The position numbers and the translations under genes were made by a program. Of a stretch of DNA of 64,000 bases, positions 34,767 through 60,935 are shown one piece after another. How positions within the stretch are numbered: the stretch's first letter is position 1; each line of letters starts with the position of its first letter. This DNA comes from Escherichia phage vB_EcoM-E33, in the sequence record OL780484.1; one strand, given 5' to 3'. Under the pieces are notes generated by a model. The model saw only the letters and a program-made list of their open reading frames with translations, was not told where the DNA came from and did not search any database.

Positions 34767-34808
34767 TTAAATCCGTGATAGAATACTTCTATCAACTTAA
34801 GGAATAAT

Positions 34809-35168
34809 ATGAAAACTTACCAACAATTTATTACTGAATCTACTCAGCGCATTAACGAAGCTATGTCTCCTGAACAATTGGCTAAGGCCAAAGAAGGGCT
34901 GAACCCATCTGAAGTTTTTAAAGTTACAGGTAAAGACTTTGCTTCCATGGCCACTAACCAGAGCTTGGCTAAAGAACTTAAATCTAAATCTAACTTCATT
35001 CATGCTACATGGAATGGTGATTCTCTTACTTCAATAAGTGTGTACAATAAAAAAGGTCTCCTTAAGAGTTCTTATGGCGCGGATGCCATCCGTGTTTCTA
35101 AATCAGATTGGCATAAAAACACTACTAAAGCAGAAAAACCTCATAACCCGGCACTAGACCATCTTTAA
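34809..35168 (+). CDS. internal-protein-like protein with capsid-targeting leader
   Basis: N-terminus MKTYQQFITEST; 119 aa. Confidence 0.7.
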   Translation: MKTYQQFITESTQRINEAMSPEQLAKAKEGLNPSEVFKVTGKDFASMATNQSLAKELKSKSNFIHATWNGDSLTSISVYNKKGLLKSSYGADAIRVSKSDWHKNTTKAEKPHNPALDHL

Positions 35169-35176
35169 GGCTTAAT

Positions 35177-35434
35177 ATGAAAACTTACCAAGAATTTATT
35201 ACAGAATCCACTTTAGTTTCTAAACGTTGGAATATGATTGTAAACGTTAAACCTTCCGGCACTGAAGTTTCTATGGCCGACCCTAATGATGACGAACTTG
35301 AGCACGCTTTTAGCTCTAAAGAAACTGACGAGAAAGTGGTTAAGCAACTGGTTGCTGATGCAGATCAACTTCGTAAAGTAGCAGATGTTGTTAAGCTGTT
35401 TACTAAGAAAGGTTTTAAACACGAAGAACGTTAA
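35177..35434 (+). CDS. internal-protein-like protein with capsid-targeting leader
   Basis: N-terminus MKTYQEFITEST; 85 aa. Confidence 0.7.
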   Translation: MKTYQEFITESTLVSKRWNMIVNVKPSGTEVSMADPNDDELEHAFSSKETDEKVVKQLVADADQLRKVADVVKLFTKKGFKHEER

Positions 35435-50773: not shown

Positions 50774-50996
50774 AGAATATGTAGAGGCTGCCGATAAGGC
50801 AGTCCGCGAACTTACTTTAGCTTATTATAAAGAGCATGGTAAATTTCCGGACAGTTATTCAGTATTGAAATCTGCTTTAACTCGCTCGTATAATAATATA
50901 CTATCTGATGTGTATAATTTAAAATATGAGCACATGGAAAAATATGGAACAGAACTTGACCGTTCTGAAGCATTCAAACAAATATTAGGAATTTAA
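50760..50996 (+). CDS. hypothetical protein
   Basis: ATG 50760 overlapping the upstream gene end; ORF-track start 50646. Confidence 0.45.
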
Positions 50997-50997
50997 A

Positions 50998-51261
50998 ATG
51001 TTTAAAGTTTATGGTTATGATTCAAATATTCACCGTTGTGTTTTCTGTGATAATGCCAAACGTCTGCTTGATGTTAAGAAACAACCTTACGAATTCATTA
51101 ACGTGATGCCGGAAAAAGGCGTATTTGATGATGAGAAGATTGCTCAACTCCTGGCTGCGCTTGGTCGCGAATCTCAAATCGGTTTGACCATGCCGCAAGT
51201 ATTTGCCCCTGATGGAAGTCATATTGGTGGCTTTGACCAACTGCGAGCGTATTTCAAATGA
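50998..51261 (+). CDS. nrdC: glutaredoxin/thioredoxin (NrdC)
   Basis: 87 aa; MFKVYGYDSNIH.CV.CDNAKRLL..KKQP.EFIN.MPEKGVFDDEKIA.LL..LGR..QIGLTMPQVFAPDGSHIGGFDQLR.YFK nearly identical to T4 NrdC. Confidence 0.93.
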   Translation: MFKVYGYDSNIHRCVFCDNAKRLLDVKKQPYEFINVMPEKGVFDDEKIAQLLAALGRESQIGLTMPQVFAPDGSHIGGFDQLRAYFK

Positions 51262-51419
51262 TTGAATTAATGTTGGTTGTTTTGTATCTTATCATCGGTA
51301 TTGGTTATGCTAAGACCCTAGCTAAATTAGATGATTCAGGTGACTTTTGTTGGTGGTTGACGTCTATGATTTGTTGGCCTTTATTTCTGGTTGGTGCTTC
51401 ATTCTGGAACTTCAAATGA
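51258..51419 (+). CDS. possible 53-aa membrane peptide (not in ORF track)
   Basis: ATG overlaps the nrdC stop (ATGA); MIELMLVVLYLIIGIGYAKTLAKLDDSGDFCWWLTSMICWPLFLVGASFWNFK; its stop overlaps the next ATG. Confidence 0.4.
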   Translation: MIELMLVVLYLIIGIGYAKTLAKLDDSGDFCWWLTSMICWPLFLVGASFWNFK

Positions 51420-51724
51420 TTGAATTAAACGAACAAACCATTTTTCTAGGTGATGGTACCGAAGATGACCTGGAATATAAACTATACGAATATATGGTTT
51501 GGTTGGCTAAAGCAGAAGGTATAGACTTTGCTGTAGCCCATCCATATGGCGAGAACACTGTTGTAATCGGCGGCACCGCTTACGAAGTCCAATGGCAATA
51601 CGTTGGCCTTGAATCTGAAGAATTTGAAGAAGATGAACACGGTGATTGGCATCCAGTCGGTCCTTGGTACTGGGAACACGGTGAACCTGATTTTGAAGTA
51701 AGTAGTTGGTGGTGTGACCGTTAA
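51416..51724 (+). CDS. acidic hypothetical protein
   Basis: ATG 51416 (MIELNEQTIF...); ORF-track start 51347. Confidence 0.5.
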   Translation: MIELNEQTIFLGDGTEDDLEYKLYEYMVWLAKAEGIDFAVAHPYGENTVVIGGTAYEVQWQYVGLESEEFEEDEHGDWHPVGPWYWEHGEPDFEVSSWWCDR

Positions 51725-51779
51725 GCCATGGTATGTCGCTCGGTGGGATACGATAGAACCTACCGAGCCAGAGGAACCC

Positions 51780-51809
51780 GTTTACAACGATTCCGAAATA
51801 GAGTATAAT
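51780..51809 (+). promoter_or_regulatory. early promoter
   Basis: GTTTAC 51780-51785, 18 nt, TATAAT 51804-51809; preceded by a 10-bp stem hairpin at 51738-51768. Confidence 0.55.
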
Positions 51810-51855
51810 GAACCTTCAAACAATGATTTAATTGATATGGAATATGGGTTTTACT

Positions 51856-52032
51856 ATGAAAACTGAACTGATTTATACTGAAAAGTTAAATGGCGGTAAA
51901 GTCTGGAAACTTCTTATTAAAGGAAGTCCTACTGATCAGTTTATGGCCACTTGTGTAGGGTTATACACCCGTCCTACCAAAAAGATGATTCGTCAATTTA
52001 AACGGTTGCATCGCTCATTTTATAATGTTTAA
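51856..52032 (+). CDS. small basic hypothetical protein
   Basis: ATG 51856 (MKTELIY...); ORF-track start 51832. Confidence 0.45.
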   Translation: MKTELIYTEKLNGGKVWKLLIKGSPTDQFMATCVGLYTRPTKKMIRQFKRLHRSFYNV

Positions 52033-52070
52033 TAAATACCTATATCTAATTATTATTAAAGGTATAGGTC

Positions 52071-53144
52071 ATGCAAGATTTCGGACATTGGGCGGTATTT
52101 GAAGAAACCGATATTAAAAACCATATTGGATTTGTATACGTAATCACTTTTGAAGATGGCAAAAAATATGTGGGTGCTAAAAAGATTTGGAAACGAATTA
52201 AAGCTGCACCTTGCACATTTAAACGCGGCCCTAAAAAAGGATTTGAAGAATCTGATTGGAAAACCTATACCTCATCATCTAATGAACTAAACGCAATGAT
52301 AGAAAAGGGTATAAGTCCTAAAGAGTACCTTATTGTAGGATGGTATCCTACTTGGGGTAAAACTCTTATGGCAGAAATGGAAATGCAATTAGCCAATGAT
52401 GTTTTACGAGACCCTATGTGGCTTAACAAGCAAATTGGCGGACATTTCAACCCTAACTGCTTTGACGATTTAACCGAAGATGATATTGCAAGATGGATGG
52501 AATTTGATAAAGGGAACGAACATGTTTCCTGGCCTATGATGTACAAAATCGGTCAGAAAACCAAATATGTTAAACCTGACGAAGTTGGCAAGTATATTAA
52601 ATCTGGGTGGCAATTTGGTCGTTCTAAAACAGAAAAACATTCTGTTACCTATAATTGCTCTAAATTTACTATATGGGACTATCAAGAAAATAAAGCAGTG
52701 GAAGTTCTAAATCAAAATGAGTTTGCTCGTAATAATGATTTAAGTAGCAACCATCTAACTAGACTACTTCAAGGAACTCTCGACCTTATTAAAGATCGCT
52801 GGGGACTTCCACCAGATATTGCTCGTCAGCGTTATAAATTTCAGGACGTTTCTTCAGGAACAAAATTTTTATCTAATTCTGAGTTAGAAGAATTTTACGG
52901 TATGACTCGCGGTCAGGCTAACAAAGCCGTTAAAGATGGAAGAGCCGTTAAATTGGTAGTCGAAAGCAAAGAAGACCACATTAAAAAACTTGGCTCTATC
53001 GAATTGGTAAAAACCGAAAAGACAAAAGTTACGTCTCAAGTAATGCTTAACAGTTTTAAAGATATAGTTAATCCTATGACCACTGCCGAAAAATCAGAAA
53101 TGATTGAATGGTTGGAAAGTTATATAACTTATTTGAAATCTTAA
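52071..53144 (+). CDS. GIY-YIG homing endonuclease (Seg-like)
   Basis: N-terminal GFVYVITFEDGKKYVGAKK GIY-YIG motif; 357 aa with long C-terminal putative DNA-binding region. Confidence 0.75.
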   Translation: MQDFGHWAVFEETDIKNHIGFVYVITFEDGKKYVGAKKIWKRIKAAPCTFKRGPKKGFEESDWKTYTSSSNELNAMIEKGISPKEYLIVGWYPTWGKTLMAEMEMQLANDVLRDPMWLNKQIGGHFNPNCFDDLTEDDIARWMEFDKGNEHVSWPMMYKIGQKTKYVKPDEVGKYIKSGWQFGRSKTEKHSVTYNCSKFTIWDYQENKAVEVLNQNEFARNNDLSSNHLTRLLQGTLDLIKDRWGLPPDIARQRYKFQDVSSGTKFLSNSELEEFYGMTRGQANKAVKDGRAVKLVVESKEDHIKKLGSIELVKTEKTKVTSQVMLNSFKDIVNPMTTAEKSEMIEWLESYITYLKS

Positions 53145-54881: not shown

Positions 54882-54888
54882 GGAAAAT

Positions 54889-55020
54889 ATGAATATCAAA
54901 CGAATGCTTTTTAAGCAAGGACTATACACTTTAAATGTTAGTCCAAAGGGCGATACAACCACGTGGTCAGTAAATGACTGGATTAAATTCATTGATAAAC
55001 ACGGAAACTGGAAAATTTAA
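54889..55020 (+). CDS. small hypothetical protein
   Basis: ATG 54889 after SD gaggaa; 43 aa; ORF-track start 54796. Confidence 0.4.
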   Translation: MNIKRMLFKQGLYTLNVSPKGDTTTWSVNDWIKFIDKHGNWKI

Positions 55021-55221
55021 ATGAATCCTGAATCTAAATTATCACAGCGAATTGCTGAAGCTCGTCGTCAGTTCTTTGAAAATATGATAGCCCAAGGTAT
55101 TGATGACGAAGTTTTTCTGAACTGGTTTTGGAACCACAAATATTCAAGTTGTTCAGGCGCTTTATTAATTTCAGCTGCATCTATGTACGAAGGCTGGAAA
55201 GGTGCAATGAGTCAAAAATAG
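55021..55221 (+). CDS. hypothetical protein
   Basis: 66 aa. Confidence 0.45.
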   Translation: MNPESKLSQRIAEARRQFFENMIAQGIDDEVFLNWFWNHKYSSCSGALLISAASMYEGWKGAMSQK

Positions 55222-58797: not shown

Positions 58798-59057
58798 CTT
58801 TAGATGAATTCAAAAAATCAGGCCTTGAACTAGAACACGACTGCATCGTTATTGATGACGATAACCAAACGAATATCATTAAGTTCTGGTTTGAAGCCGT
58901 GAGCACTCGCGATACCAACGAGCTTATTAAAGTTTATGTTGCTACTGATTGGGCTGTAGAATTTAGCTTTAATGTAATGGTAGATGATACTCCAGAAACA
59001 TTAATTCATATGGCTGAATCATGCATCAAGGATGCTTATAATGACGAAAATGTATAA
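58794..59057 (+). CDS. hypothetical protein
   Basis: ATGA overlap with gp47; 87 aa. Confidence 0.45.
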   Translation: MTLDEFKKSGLELEHDCIVIDDDNQTNIIKFWFEAVSTRDTNELIKVYVATDWAVEFSFNVMVDDTPETLIHMAESCIKDAYNDENV

Positions 59058-59256
59058 ACATGATTTTCATATTGGCGATGGCTGGTTCGGTAATGTAGAA
59101 TGGGACGTGGATGGTTCTTGGTATACCGGAACTATGTATGTCACTTCTGGATATTCTGAAGGTGTTTCATGGGCCATGGAACTTGACGACGTGTTTGCTT
59201 CTTCCGAAGAAATGCTAGAATATGCCGAACAAACAATTCGTGAGAACAATACATGA
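59041..59256 (+). CDS. hypothetical protein
   Basis: ATG 59041 (alternatives 59032, 59050); its stop overlaps the gp46 ATG. Confidence 0.45.
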   Translation: MTKMYKHDFHIGDGWFGNVEWDVDGSWYTGTMYVTSGYSEGVSWAMELDDVFASSEEMLEYAEQTIRENNT

Positions 59257-60935
59257 AGACTTTTAAGTTAAAGAAAGTAACGTATAAAAATATCATGTCA
59301 GTAGGCCAGCAACCTATTACAATCCAACTTGATAAGGTCCAAAAGACCTTAGTCACCGGTAAAAACGGCGCTGGTAAATCTACGTTCCTTGAAGCCGTTA
59401 CATTTGCTCTGTTCGGTAAGCCTTTTCGTGATGTTAAGAAAGGGCAGTTGATTAACTCAAGTAATAAGAAAGACCTTTTGGTCGAACTGTGGATGGAATA
59501 TGATGGCAAAGAATACTATATCAAGCGCGGGCAAAAACCCAATATTTTTGAAATCTCTTGTGGCGGTGAACGTCTTGATGAATCTGCCAGCAGTAAAGAC
59601 TTCCAAGCAGAATTTGAACAGCTTATCGGAATGTCATATACCAGTTTCAAACAGATTGTCGTACTTGGTACAGCAGGGTATACCCCTTTCATGGGTTTGT
59701 CGACCCCTGCGCGCCGAAAGCTTGTGGAAGACCTCTTAGAGGTTTCTGTATTAGCGGATATGGATAAGTTGAACAAATCTTTGATTCGTGAGACTAATAG
59801 CCAAATCCAAGTAATCGACGTTAAGCAGGATTCTATTACCCAACAGATTAAAATTTATAATGACAACGAAGAACGTCAGCGTAAATTATCCGGCGAGAAC
59901 GCAGCACGTCTACAAGTAATGTATGACGAGCTAGTTAAAGAAGCCAGGACTGCGAAGGGCAATATAGAAAAACTAACTGATGAATTACTCAATGTCATCG
60001 TCGATGATGACCCTAGCAACTCTATGAGTGACCTGAGCAATAAAGGATTTGCAATCAAGAATGATATGGCAACCTTTACTAAGGTCGTGAAATTATACGA
60101 AACTGGCGGTAGCTGTCCTACGTGTATGCAAGGGTTAGAAGAGCATGGGAACATCCTTACTAAAATTAAGGACAAGAACTTTGAACTTCAAAAATCTTTG
60201 GATAAGATTAATGAGCAGTACCAAGAACTCAAGCTCATTAAGGACCAAGTAACCGAACAACGTAATAAAGCGCTGGCTATTAAATCTCAGATAGCTACTC
60301 ATAAGCAACAAGCCATTACTGCCGTAGAGAAAGCTAAAAAAGTTAAAGTATTAATAGACCAAGCCGCTGCTGAGTTCGTAAGTAATGCCGAAGAGATTGC
60401 CACGCTTCAAGCAGAGCTTGATAAAATCGTCTCTACCAAATCGTCCTTAGTAATGGAAAAATATCATCGTGGAATTCTGACAGAAATGTTGAAGGATACC
60501 GGTATTAAAGGTTCCATTATTAAGAAATACATTCCTATCTTTAATAAGCAGATAAATTCTTATTTGAAGATTATGGAAGCCGACTACGTCTTTACCCTAG
60601 ACGAAGAATTCAATGAGACGATTAAATCACGTGGACGTGAAGACTTTAGTTATGCTTCATTTTCACAGGGTGAGAAAGCACGTATTGATATCGCACTACT
60701 TTTTACCTGGCGTGATATTGCTTCAAAGGTATCCGGTGTTAATATCAGCACATTAATTCTTGATGAAGTTTTTGACAGTGCTACTGACGCCGAGGGTGTT
60801 AAGAGCATTGCAACCATCTTGAATAGCCTTGAAGATACGAACGTGTTCATTATCTCTCACCGAGACCATGACCCACAAGCTTATGGCCAACATCTTCAAA
60901 TGAAGAAAGTTGGACGATTCACGGTGATGGAATGA
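59253..60935 (+). CDS. 46: recombination endonuclease subunit gp46 (Rad50/SbcC-like)
   Basis: 560 aa; Walker A GKNGAGKST, central coiled coil with CPTC zinc hook, signature FSQGEKARIDIALL, Walker B LILDEVFD. Confidence 0.92.
   Translation: MKTFKLKKVTYKNIMSVGQQPITIQLDKVQKTLVTGKNGAGKSTFLEAVTFALFGKPFRDVKKGQLINSSNKKDLLVELWMEYDGKEYYIKRGQKPNIFEISCGGERLDESASSKDFQAEFEQLIGMSYTSFKQIVVLGTAGYTPFMGLSTPARRKLVEDLLEVSVLADMDKLNKSLIRETNSQIQVIDVKQDSITQQIKIYNDNEERQRKLSGENAARLQVMYDELVKEARTAKGNIEKLTDELLNVIVDDDPSNSMSDLSNKGFAIKNDMATFTKVVKLYETGGSCPTCMQGLEEHGNILTKIKDKNFELQKSLDKINEQYQELKLIKDQVTEQRNKALAIKSQIATHKQQAITAVEKAKKVKVLIDQAAAEFVSNAEEIATLQAELDKIVSTKSSLVMEKYHRGILTEMLKDTGIKGSIIKKYIPIFNKQINSYLKIMEADYVFTLDEEFNETIKSRGREDFSYASFSQGEKARIDIALLFTWRDIASKVSGVNISTLILDEVFDSATDAEGVKSIATILNSLEDTNVFIISHRDHDPQAYGQHLQMKKVGRFTVME

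What the first reader, a model, noticed from the sequence alone, without database searches (positions are those of the whole stretch)
51249..51432. Duplicated gene-junction sequence creates a small membrane ORF after nrdC
The 17-mer ttcaaatgattgaatta occurs at the nrdC stop (51253) and again at 51411. Each copy provides ...F-K-stop overlapping ATG-ATT-GAA-TTA (M-I-E-L). Between the copies lies an unannotated 53-codon ORF encoding a two-helix hydrophobic peptide. The arrangement looks like a junction duplication that inserted a small membrane gene while preserving translational coupling.
Basis: seen in the sequence. Interest (0 to 1): 0.35.

Follow-up and report, generated by a model that had tools for sequence, protein, structure and literature searches.

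The report
Optional small membrane gene after nrdC
A T4-like coliphage carries a conserved but dispensable 53-codon membrane-protein gene between nrdC and gene 49.3, bounded by an identical 18-base stop/start junction that also marks where close relatives lack the gene; this is an ordinary accessory-gene polymorphism and not evidence of a new insertion mechanism.

Summary
TTCAAATGATTGAATTAA (18 nt) occurs exactly twice, at 51253 and 51411, each time as F-K-stop overlapping ATG-ATT-GAA-TTA. The copies flank an intact 53-codon ORF (51258-51419) that is predicted to form a two-helix hairpin.

The window is a Dhakavirus, identical to phage WG01 over this stretch. WG01 already annotates the ORF (ORF82, hypothetical protein), and it belongs to phrog_6756.

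The gene is not a recent insertion. Homologues of 52-62 aa sit in the nrdC–49.3 interval in at least five T4-like genera and in distant metagenomic contigs. The C-terminal FWNFK motif belongs to the family itself. pN/pS is about 0.17.

T4 and five Dhakaviruses (JS10, MX01, AnYang, CUA3, 005) join nrdC directly to 49.3 through a single copy of the junction. Others (JS98, IME08) carry a second small gene after it.

My reading is that the repeat is made of the native ends of three neighbouring genes. In the WG01 type it was completed when that second gene was lost at ATGA. It marks the breakpoints of deletion or allele exchange, and coupling is preserved in every state. The direction of the oldest event cannot be proved. 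The protein's function is unknown. Interest is low to moderate.

The parts
50998..51261 (+). nrdC (phage thioredoxin/glutaredoxin, 87 aa). It ends ...YFK-TGA.
   Evidence: ORF list. Pfam Glutaredoxin and phrog_22. Annotated NrdC in WG01. The same C-terminus YFK is found in T4.
51253..51270 (+). Junction repeat copy 1 (TTCAAATGATTGAATTAA). It holds the last two nrdC codons and the stop, overlapping the ATG and first four codons of the small ORF.
51258..51419 (+). Small ORF of 53 aa (WG01 ORF82, phrog_6756). It is a predicted two-helix membrane hairpin with conserved Y10, G14-I15-G16, K19, W40-P41 and F49-W50-N51-F52.
51411..51428 (+). Junction repeat copy 2. It holds the last two codons and stop of the small ORF, overlapping the ATG and first four codons of 49.3.
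   Evidence: In JS98 and IME08 this copy is split by an extra gene.
51416..51724 (+). Gene 49.3 homologue (102 aa, phrog_4203). It starts MIELNEQ, as in T4. Its homologues in distant contigs are recorded as Pfam Phage_T4_Y04L.

Best explanation
The 53-codon ORF is an old, conserved but dispensable accessory gene of T4-like phages. It encodes a two-helix inner-membrane hairpin protein of unknown function. It lies in one transcription unit with nrdC and 49.3. It is most likely translated by termination-reinitiation at AUGA overlaps, because neither AUG has more than a 3-nt Shine-Dalgarno-like match upstream (this step is inferred). The 18-nt repeat is not an insertion footprint. It is built from native gene ends: NrdC ends YFK, the small protein ends FWNFK, and both the small protein and gp49.3 begin MIEL. 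In the WG01 type, copy 2 became contiguous when an intervening small gene (RB69 orf092c-like, still present in JS98 and IME08) was lost exactly between two ATGA overlaps. The repeat then serves as the breakpoint for precise loss of the small gene, by recombination or replication slippage between short direct repeats. Relatives also exchange alleles with breakpoints at or near these junctions. This produces the polymorphic series: empty (T4, JS10, MX01), small only (WG01, Bp7), small plus second gene (JS98, IME08), and small plus remnant (VR7). The reading frame and coupling are preserved in every state. Shown: anatomy, conservation, purifying selection, exact empty sites, mosaic alleles. Inferred: coupling, deletion as the direction of change, membrane location, any function.
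For: Age and authenticity of the gene. phrog_6756 matches at E 8e-30. tblastn finds it in 110 phage records across several genera, always beside nrdC/49.3. An exhaustive profile search found 14 credible clusters at 50% identity, all 52-62 aa (a fifteenth hit, a 1585-aa protein matched in 8 short stretches, I set aside as a low-complexity match), with an invariant set of residues. Distant contigs keep the order nrdC ... small-ATGA-49.3. pN/pS is 0.17, against 0.12 and 0.14 for the flanking genes. The AlphaFold2 model is a hairpin. Native termini. FWNFK is present in all genera, although NrdC ends YLK in EcS1 and CHI14 and TYK in Marfavirus. The N-termini read MIEG, MVEG or MTEL in the nearest clusters. 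T4 NrdC ends YFK and T4 gp49.3 starts MIELNEQ, with no small gene between them. Copy 2 arose by deletion. In JS98 and IME08 the sequence reads ...TTCAAATGA|CCGAATTTG...[second gene]...GGAATTATGA|TTGAATTAAAC. VR7 keeps a 9-codon remnant of that gene. Exact empty sites. The JS10-JS98 flanks are 97.1% and 97.5% identical and the alignments overlap by the 12-nt ATGATTGAATTA. MX01 and WG01 overlap by the 18-mer. Empty alleles sit on at least two flank haplotypes: JS10 and CUA3 resemble JS98, while MX01, AnYang and 005 group together. The pattern is partly general. Of 7 clean indels between the window and MX01 over 33 kb, four have junction-type overlaps of 5-18 nt (two of them imperfect) at start-codon regions, and this one is the longest. 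Allele exchange. P479 carries a Dhakavirus-type allele (98.7% identical to IME341) inside flanks that are 85-90% identical, and the tract ends within about 10 nt of both junctions. IME08 has the 55-aa allele typical of Gaprivervirus within Dhakavirus-like flanks.
Against: The direction of change was not observed, and phage mosaicism weakens parsimony arguments. The identity of 4 N-terminal codons plus 2 C-terminal codons between neighbouring genes is unlikely to be pure chance. Among 24 ATGA junctions in the window, 8 are K-stop and 8 start ATGAT (7 of these ATGATT), but none approaches 17-nt identity. Some homogenising or duplicative event in the deeper past therefore cannot be excluded. No expression data exist for this ORF, and translational coupling is inferred from sequence only. 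Function is unknown: there are no Pfam or NCBIfam families.
Confidence: 0.62

Rival explanations
1. An ancestor had nrdC-ATGA-49.3, as T4 does now. The small gene entered by an event that duplicated the junction, so that its first four and last two codons are copies of the 49.3 start and the nrdC end. Later divergence blurred this in other genera.
For: T4, EcNP1 and several Dhakaviruses show the predicted single-copy 'empty' junction. The 17-18-nt identity is far beyond chance and beyond the similarity among other ATGA junctions. The three successive genes in JS98 all start ATGAnnGAATT.
Against: The FWNFK-stop ending is conserved across the whole family, including genera whose NrdC ends differently. 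In CHI14 the gene starts MVEG while separated from nrdC by 122 nt. The gene occurs in lineages far more distant from WG01 than T4 is, with divergence like its neighbours, so T4 most likely lost it. An empty junction looks the same whether it arose by deletion or was never occupied.
Confidence: 0.15
2. The stop/start junction acts as a minimal, promoter-less linker sequence. On this view it is maintained because it lets small genes be excised, re-inserted and reordered within a translationally coupled operon, in the manner of PeSL cassettes or the boundary sequences of lambdoid phages.
For: All four occupancy states exist. The order of the small gene and the orf092c-like gene differs between lineages (JS98, contig L029, Mosigvirus). 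The small and second genes form a low-diversity island (pi 0.042-0.046) between flanks at 0.10-0.12. That low synonymous divergence is not seen in other lineages. The P479 mosaic tract ends at both junctions.
Against: The small gene is never found outside the nrdC-49.x interval. The junction motif occurs nowhere else in the window with up to 2 mismatches. The repeat is degraded in Bp7 (15/18) and P479 (14/18) without loss of the gene. Breakpoints at gene boundaries are also expected from selection against chimeric proteins. Flank diversity may be inflated by introgression from phages that lack the insert.
Confidence: 0.18
3. The ORF is a chance open frame and the repeat is a coincidence or an assembly artefact.
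For: The ORF is short and hydrophobic, has no known function, and is missing from some GenBank annotations.
Against: It is intact in the 14 carriers I read in full, and all 110 tblastn matches but one (Esco_phi_B-01, a possible 1-nt frameshift) gave a single unbroken alignment, 95 of them over at least 80% of the protein. It is under purifying selection, it is conserved to 33% aa identity with invariant motifs, and an identical sequence occurs in independently sequenced phages.
Confidence: 0.02

Closest known systems
PeSL + ORFan cassettes of T4-type phages (Arbiol et al. 2010, PMC2839356; Comeau et al. 2014, PMC4122927)
   Same: A small accessory gene in a plastic region is flanked by a repeated sequence, and close relatives differ by its precise presence or absence. 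Recombination between the flanking repeats is the proposed route of excision and insertion.
   Different: PeSLs are intergenic, tens of bases long, and contain an early promoter plus a stem-loop. Here there is no intergenic DNA. The 18-nt repeat lies inside overlapping coding sequence, has no promoter and has no significant structure.
Deletions between short direct repeats in T4 (rII system; Pribnow et al. 1981, Singer and Westlye 1988; cited from memory)
   Same: One repeat copy is retained in the shorter allele and the segment between the copies is lost. The repeat length here (12-18 nt) is, as I recall, in the range reported for T4.
   Different: Those deletions were selected in the laboratory within genes. 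Here the end points are gene junctions, so the product is a clean, still-coupled operon that persists in nature.
T-even internal-protein (IP) locus polymorphism with repeated capsid-targeting-sequence codons (Repoila et al. 1994; cited from memory)
   Same: Neighbouring small genes share identical 5' codons, and the locus is polymorphic among relatives. The only other close direct repeat of 17 nt or more in this window is exactly such a case (34805/35173, MKTYQQ/EFITEST).
   Different: There the shared N-terminus has a known function (capsid targeting and protease cleavage). No function is known for MIEL.
Boundary or linker sequences at module junctions in lambdoid phages (Susskind and Botstein 1978; Clark et al. 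2001; cited from memory)
   Same: Short conserved sequences at gene boundaries coincide with mosaic breakpoints.
   Different: That is a different phage group. Those sequences lie between genes and are not stop/start overlaps.
Small T4 membrane proteins made before late gene expression (Imm, Sp, Ac, RI; from general knowledge)
   Same: Similar size class, hydrophobic helices, non-essential status and location among pre-replicative genes.
   Different: There is no detectable sequence relationship: the only PHROG hit is phrog_6756 of unknown function, and there is no Pfam or NCBIfam family. No phenotype is known.

Membership tests
phrog_6756 (unnamed small membrane protein family of T4-like phages) | Significant full-length match to the family profile | tested here: met
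   E 7.7e-30, residues 1-53 against profile positions 1-55 of 56
phrog_6756 (unnamed small membrane protein family of T4-like phages) | Conserved residues Y10, G14-I15-G16, K19, W40-P41, F49-W50-N51-F52 and a length of 52-62 aa | tested here: met
   Alignment of 16 representatives down to 33% identity
phrog_6756 (unnamed small membrane protein family of T4-like phages) | Position in the nrdC-49.x interval, usually overlapping the start of 49.3 | tested here: met
   Dhakavirus, Gaprivervirus, Kagamiyamavirus, Winklervirus, Marfavirus and three metagenomic contigs
PeSL + ORFan cassette | The flanking repeat contains a sigma-70-type early promoter | tested here: not met
   There is only a 9/12 consensus hit overlapping copy 1 (51233-51262) and none at copy 2. 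The nearest strong hits are upstream of nrdC and downstream of 49.3.
PeSL + ORFan cassette | The flanking repeat contains a stem-loop (attenuator or terminator) | tested here: not met
   Folding z-scores are -0.42, +1.02 and -0.13. There is only a weak 5-bp A/U stem, TTCAA/TTGAA. No terminator-like site lies between nrdC and 49.3.
PeSL + ORFan cassette | Repeats bound an indel between close relatives | tested here: met
   MX01 vs WG01 (18 nt) and JS10 vs JS98 (12 nt)
Transposon or homing-element insertion with target-site duplication | The element encodes a transposase or endonuclease, or has terminal inverted repeats | tested here: not met
   The 140 nt between the repeat copies encode only the 53-aa hairpin. 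No inverted repeat lies at the ends.
Translationally coupled gene pair (AUGA stop/start overlap) | Stop codon of the upstream gene overlaps the start codon of the downstream gene | tested here: met
   ATGA at 51258-51261 and 51416-51419. This is one of 24 such junctions in the window.
Translationally coupled gene pair (AUGA stop/start overlap) | Downstream translation depends on upstream translation | not testable with these tools
   Only indirect evidence: 3-nt SD-like matches (GAG at -13 to -11; GGA at -10 to -8), read from the sequence
Deletion mediated by a short direct repeat | The shorter allele keeps exactly one repeat copy and lacks the interval | tested here: met
Deletion mediated by a short direct repeat | Deletion observed to arise from the longer allele | not testable with these tools
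   This needs PCR or deep sequencing of lysates

The most novel reading that the evidence does not exclude
Stop/start overlap junctions with a few shared flanking codons act as promoter-less recombination linkers. On this reading they let T4-like phages gain, lose, exchange and reorder single small genes inside translationally coupled operons without disturbing expression. That would be a minimal coding-sequence analogue of PeSL cassettes. The nrdC-49.3 interval would be a natural example in which all occupancy states and at least one junction-bounded allele transfer (P479) are visible.
Probability: 0.18. Interest if true: 0.5.

Novelty: new member of a known kind. Interest (0 to 1): 0.25.

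Why it matters
The finding gives a clean, sequence-level example of how T4-like phages shed or swap single accessory genes at gene boundaries while keeping downstream translation intact. It also shows that a small membrane-protein family with very conserved motifs has been kept next to nrdC/49.3 across many genera, yet is dispensable in T4 itself. That makes the protein a reasonable candidate for a host-specific envelope or exclusion function. It also corrects the JS98 and IME08 annotations. It does not reveal a new mechanism.

Tried and rejected
1. Chance. Rejected: two exact copies against 0.14 expected even with 2 mismatches, and no close repeat of 17 nt or more in 100 simulations.
2. General junction consensus. 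Rejected: 24 ATGA junctions in the window share at most AAATGATT with this one.
3. RNA structure or a hidden element explaining the invariant 3' half of the ORF. No significant fold was found. By eye there is a TGCTTCA MotA-box-like heptamer, but no -10 element at the right spacing. Synonymous divergence is normal in EcS1/CHI14 and Marfa/Potts1, which argues against an intrinsic nucleotide-level constraint.
4. Pfam DUF5504 (E 0.011). Rejected: below the cutoff and matched by only 1 of 16 family members. NCBIfam gave nothing.
5. Word-indexed protein search. It returned only close relatives. The exhaustive profile search was needed.
6. The search for related loci in IMG/VR with gp49.3. It gave only 10 loci, mostly genomes already known.
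7. Scan of viral contigs for the 14-mer AAATGATTGAATTA. It returned over 120 unrelated contigs and was uninformative.
8. Transposon-like insertion. Rejected: no inverted repeats and no enzyme gene.
9. Fold search with the AlphaFold2 hairpin. Not run: a 53-residue hairpin at pLDDT 70 would give meaningless matches.

Full report
**Observation.** TTCAAATGATTGAATTA occurs at 51253 and 51411 and nowhere else in the window with up to 2 mismatches, where 0.14 matches were expected. The exact identity extends to 18 nt, with 158 nt from start to start. Across the 64-kb window only two loci carry an exact direct repeat of 17 nt or more within 500 nt, and 100 Markov-1 simulations gave none. Copy 1 covers the end of nrdC (50998-51261...YFK-TGA) and the ATG of a 53-codon ORF (51258-51419, MIELMLVV...). 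Copy 2 covers that ORF's end (...FWNFK-TGA) and the ATG of the gene 49.3 homologue (51416-51724, MIELNEQ...). The peptide has two hydrophobic segments. AlphaFold2 models helices at residues 2-25 and 30-50, with mean pLDDT 70.

**Identity of the region.** Window 50900-51900 is 100% identical to Escherichia phage WG01, a T4-like Dhakavirus. In WG01 the ORF is annotated as ORF82, a hypothetical protein. It is likewise annotated in Bp7 and VR7. It matches phrog_6756, a family of unknown function, at E 8e-30. It has no Pfam or NCBIfam family. A DUF5504 hit is below the cutoff and is seen in only 1 of 16 family members. In the JS98 and IME08 records the ORF is intact but not annotated, because a TTG-extended version of the next gene was called across its 3' half.

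**The gene is old and under selection.** tblastn finds it in 110 phage records. These include Dhakavirus, Gaprivervirus, Kagamiyamavirus (EcS1), Winklervirus (CHI14, X20) and Marfavirus, along with phages of Erwinia, Pectobacterium and Kosakonia whose genus I did not check. It lies next to nrdC/49.3 in every record I inspected.
- An exhaustive profile search of 1.8 billion representative proteins found 15 clusters. All but one spurious hit are 52-62 aa.
- The family alignment has invariant Y10, G14-I15-G16, K19, W40-P41 and W50-N51, and nearly invariant F49 and F52.
- Contigs encoding the most distant members still show the order nrdC.1 – glutaredoxin – (one variable ORF) – small gene – ATGA – 49.3.
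- Among 12 Dhakavirus and Gaprivervirus genomes, pN/pS is 0.17, comparable to nrdC (0.12) and 49.3 (0.14).
- gp49.3 of T4 is 79% identical to the window's, whereas Marfavirus and the other outgroups are 58% or less. The simplest history is therefore that the gene predates the T-even group and that T4 lost it.

**Origin of the repeat.** Each component is a native gene end.
- NrdC ends YFK in T4 as well.
- FWNFK is the hallmark C-terminus of the small family in every genus, including those whose NrdC ends YLK or TYK.
- gp49.3 starts MIELNEQ in T4.
- The small protein starts MIEL, MIEG, MVEG or MTEL in its nearest clusters.
- In JS98, IME08 and UPEC07 a further small gene (RB69 orf092c-like, 58-62 aa) lies between the small gene and 49.3. 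There the sequence reads ...TTCAAATGA|CCGAATTTG ... GGAATTATGA|TTGAATTAAAC, so copy 2 does not exist as a unit.
- VR7 keeps a 9-codon remnant of that gene.
- The WG01/Bp7 arrangement equals the JS98 arrangement minus that gene, cut between the two ATGA overlaps.

Copy 2 was therefore assembled by a deletion and was not copied from copy 1. The remaining coincidence, four identical N-terminal codons in the small gene and 49.3, is more than the general junction style explains. Of 24 ATGA junctions in the window, 8 are K-stop and 8 start ATGAT (7 of these ATGATT), but none comes close to 17-nt identity. I cannot exclude an older homogenising or duplicative event.

**Presence/absence polymorphism.** T4 and EcNP1 (Tequatrovirus) and the Dhakaviruses JS10, MX01, AnYang, CUA3 and vB_EcoM_005 join nrdC directly to 49.3 through ATGA, with one copy of the junction.
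- MX01 aligned to WG01 overlaps by exactly the 18-mer.
- JS10 aligned to JS98 overlaps by the 12-nt ATGATTGAATTA, with flanks 97.1% and 97.5% identical.
- Empty alleles occur on at least two flank haplotypes. JS10 and CUA3 are closest to JS98. MX01, AnYang and 005 are closest to each other.

This is the pattern expected from loss between short direct repeats, or from allele exchange. It is partly general. Of 7 clean indels between the window and MX01 over 33 kb, the overlaps are 1, 2, 2, 18, 12, 13 and 5 nt. The four longer ones lie at start-codon regions, two of them as imperfect repeats, and this case is the longest.

**Signs of exchange.**
- Across the same genomes, the small gene (pi 0.046) and the second gene (pi 0.042) are about 2.5 times less diverse than nrdC and 49.3 (0.10-0.12).
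- Synonymous divergence is 0.14 against 0.34-0.39 in the flanks.
- This gap is not seen in EcS1 vs CHI14 or Marfa vs Potts1, so it is not an intrinsic nucleotide constraint.
- P479 carries a small-gene allele 98.7% identical to that of IME341, inside flanks that are 85-90% identical. The high-identity tract ends within about 10 nt of both junctions.
- IME08 has Dhakavirus flanks but the 55-aa allele typical of Gaprivervirus.
- The order of the two small genes differs between lineages: JS98 has nrdC-small-second-49.3, contig L029 has nrdC-second-small-49.3, and Mosigvirus appears to have nrdC-49.3-second.

These facts fit either ordinary T-even mosaicism, with selection against chimeric genes, or a weak linker role for the junction. 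The small gene is never found at another locus, and the motif occurs nowhere else in the window. Both points argue against a freely mobile cassette.

**Expression.** No terminator-like site and no strong promoter-like site lies between nrdC and 49.3. The 11/12 promoter-like hits sit at 50865-50894 and 51781-51809. Only 3-nt SD-like matches precede the two AUGs, read from the sequence. No significant RNA structure is predicted. Translation by coupling at AUGA is therefore plausible but inferred.

**Comparison with known systems.** The logic resembles PeSL + ORFan cassettes (PMC2839356). However, the defining promoter and stem-loop are absent, so this is not a PeSL. It is a natural counterpart of the short-repeat deletions known in T4 and of the shared-5'-codon polymorphism of the IP locus (both cited from memory). 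The IP locus supplies the only other comparable repeat in this window.

**Verdict.** The feature is an already annotated, conserved accessory gene of unknown function whose boundaries coincide with an unusually long junction repeat. It is a new member of a known kind, and interest is about 0.25.

Noticed in passing
window 52025-53144 (ORF 52071-53144, + strand): A 357-aa GIY-YIG (SegE-like) homing-endonuclease-type ORF occupies the place where WG01 has gene 49 (endonuclease VII). tblastn with WG01 endo VII finds no copy anywhere in the 64-kb window. Phages 04086, ABTNLS3, Bp7, LQ5, PSD9, FB and 005 match this segment at 91-99% identity. I did not check whether gene 49 lies elsewhere in those genomes or has been functionally displaced.
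   Followed up: partly
window 34805-34823 and 35173-35191: This is the only other exact close direct repeat of 17 nt or more in the window (19 nt, TAATATGAAAACTTACCAA). It lies at the starts of two adjacent genes that both begin MKTYQ(Q/E)FITEST. From memory this is the capsid-targeting sequence of T-even internal proteins. The window and MX01 also differ by a replacement here.
   Followed up: partly
L002 (JS98) 1859-2020 and L004 (IME08) 650-817: In the public JS98 and IME08 records the small membrane gene is intact but unannotated. The neighbouring 'RB69 orf092c-like' CDS is started at an upstream TTG inside it. The ATG that overlaps the small gene's stop gives a 58-62-aa product, as annotated in UPEC07.
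   Followed up: yes
window 51258-51419 and the homologous segments of L002-L005, L014-L022: The small gene and the second small gene form a low-diversity island (pi about 0.045) between flanks at about 0.11. The last 50 nt or so of the small gene are almost invariant across two genera. P479 and IME08 carry alleles that do not match their flanks.
   Followed up: partly
window 51253-51266 and 51411-51424: The junction contains a 5-bp A/U-rich inverted repeat (TTCAA ... TTGAA) that would present AUGA as a 4-nt hairpin loop. It is kept with a G-U wobble in Bp7 and JS10 but not in T4 (TTTAA ... TAGAA). The fold is not significant.
   Followed up: partly
window 54882-55022, 51856-51867 and 59049-59257, compared with MX01 (L030): Three further gene-sized indels between the window and MX01 have overlaps of 13, 12 and 5 nt at ribosome-binding-site or start-codon regions; the 13- and 12-nt ones are imperfect repeats.
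   Followed up: partly
L028 1298-1501 (metagenomic T4-like contig): Directly upstream of the small-gene homologue lies a 67-aa hydrophobic ORF that contains LLWPISLVIF. This resembles the WP helix of the family and may be a diverged tandem paralogue.
   Followed up: no
OP292222.1 (phage Esco_phi_B-01) 101411-101568: The small-gene match spans 158 nt in two tblastn pieces instead of 159 nt. This suggests a 1-nt frameshift or a sequencing error in this one record.
   Followed up: no
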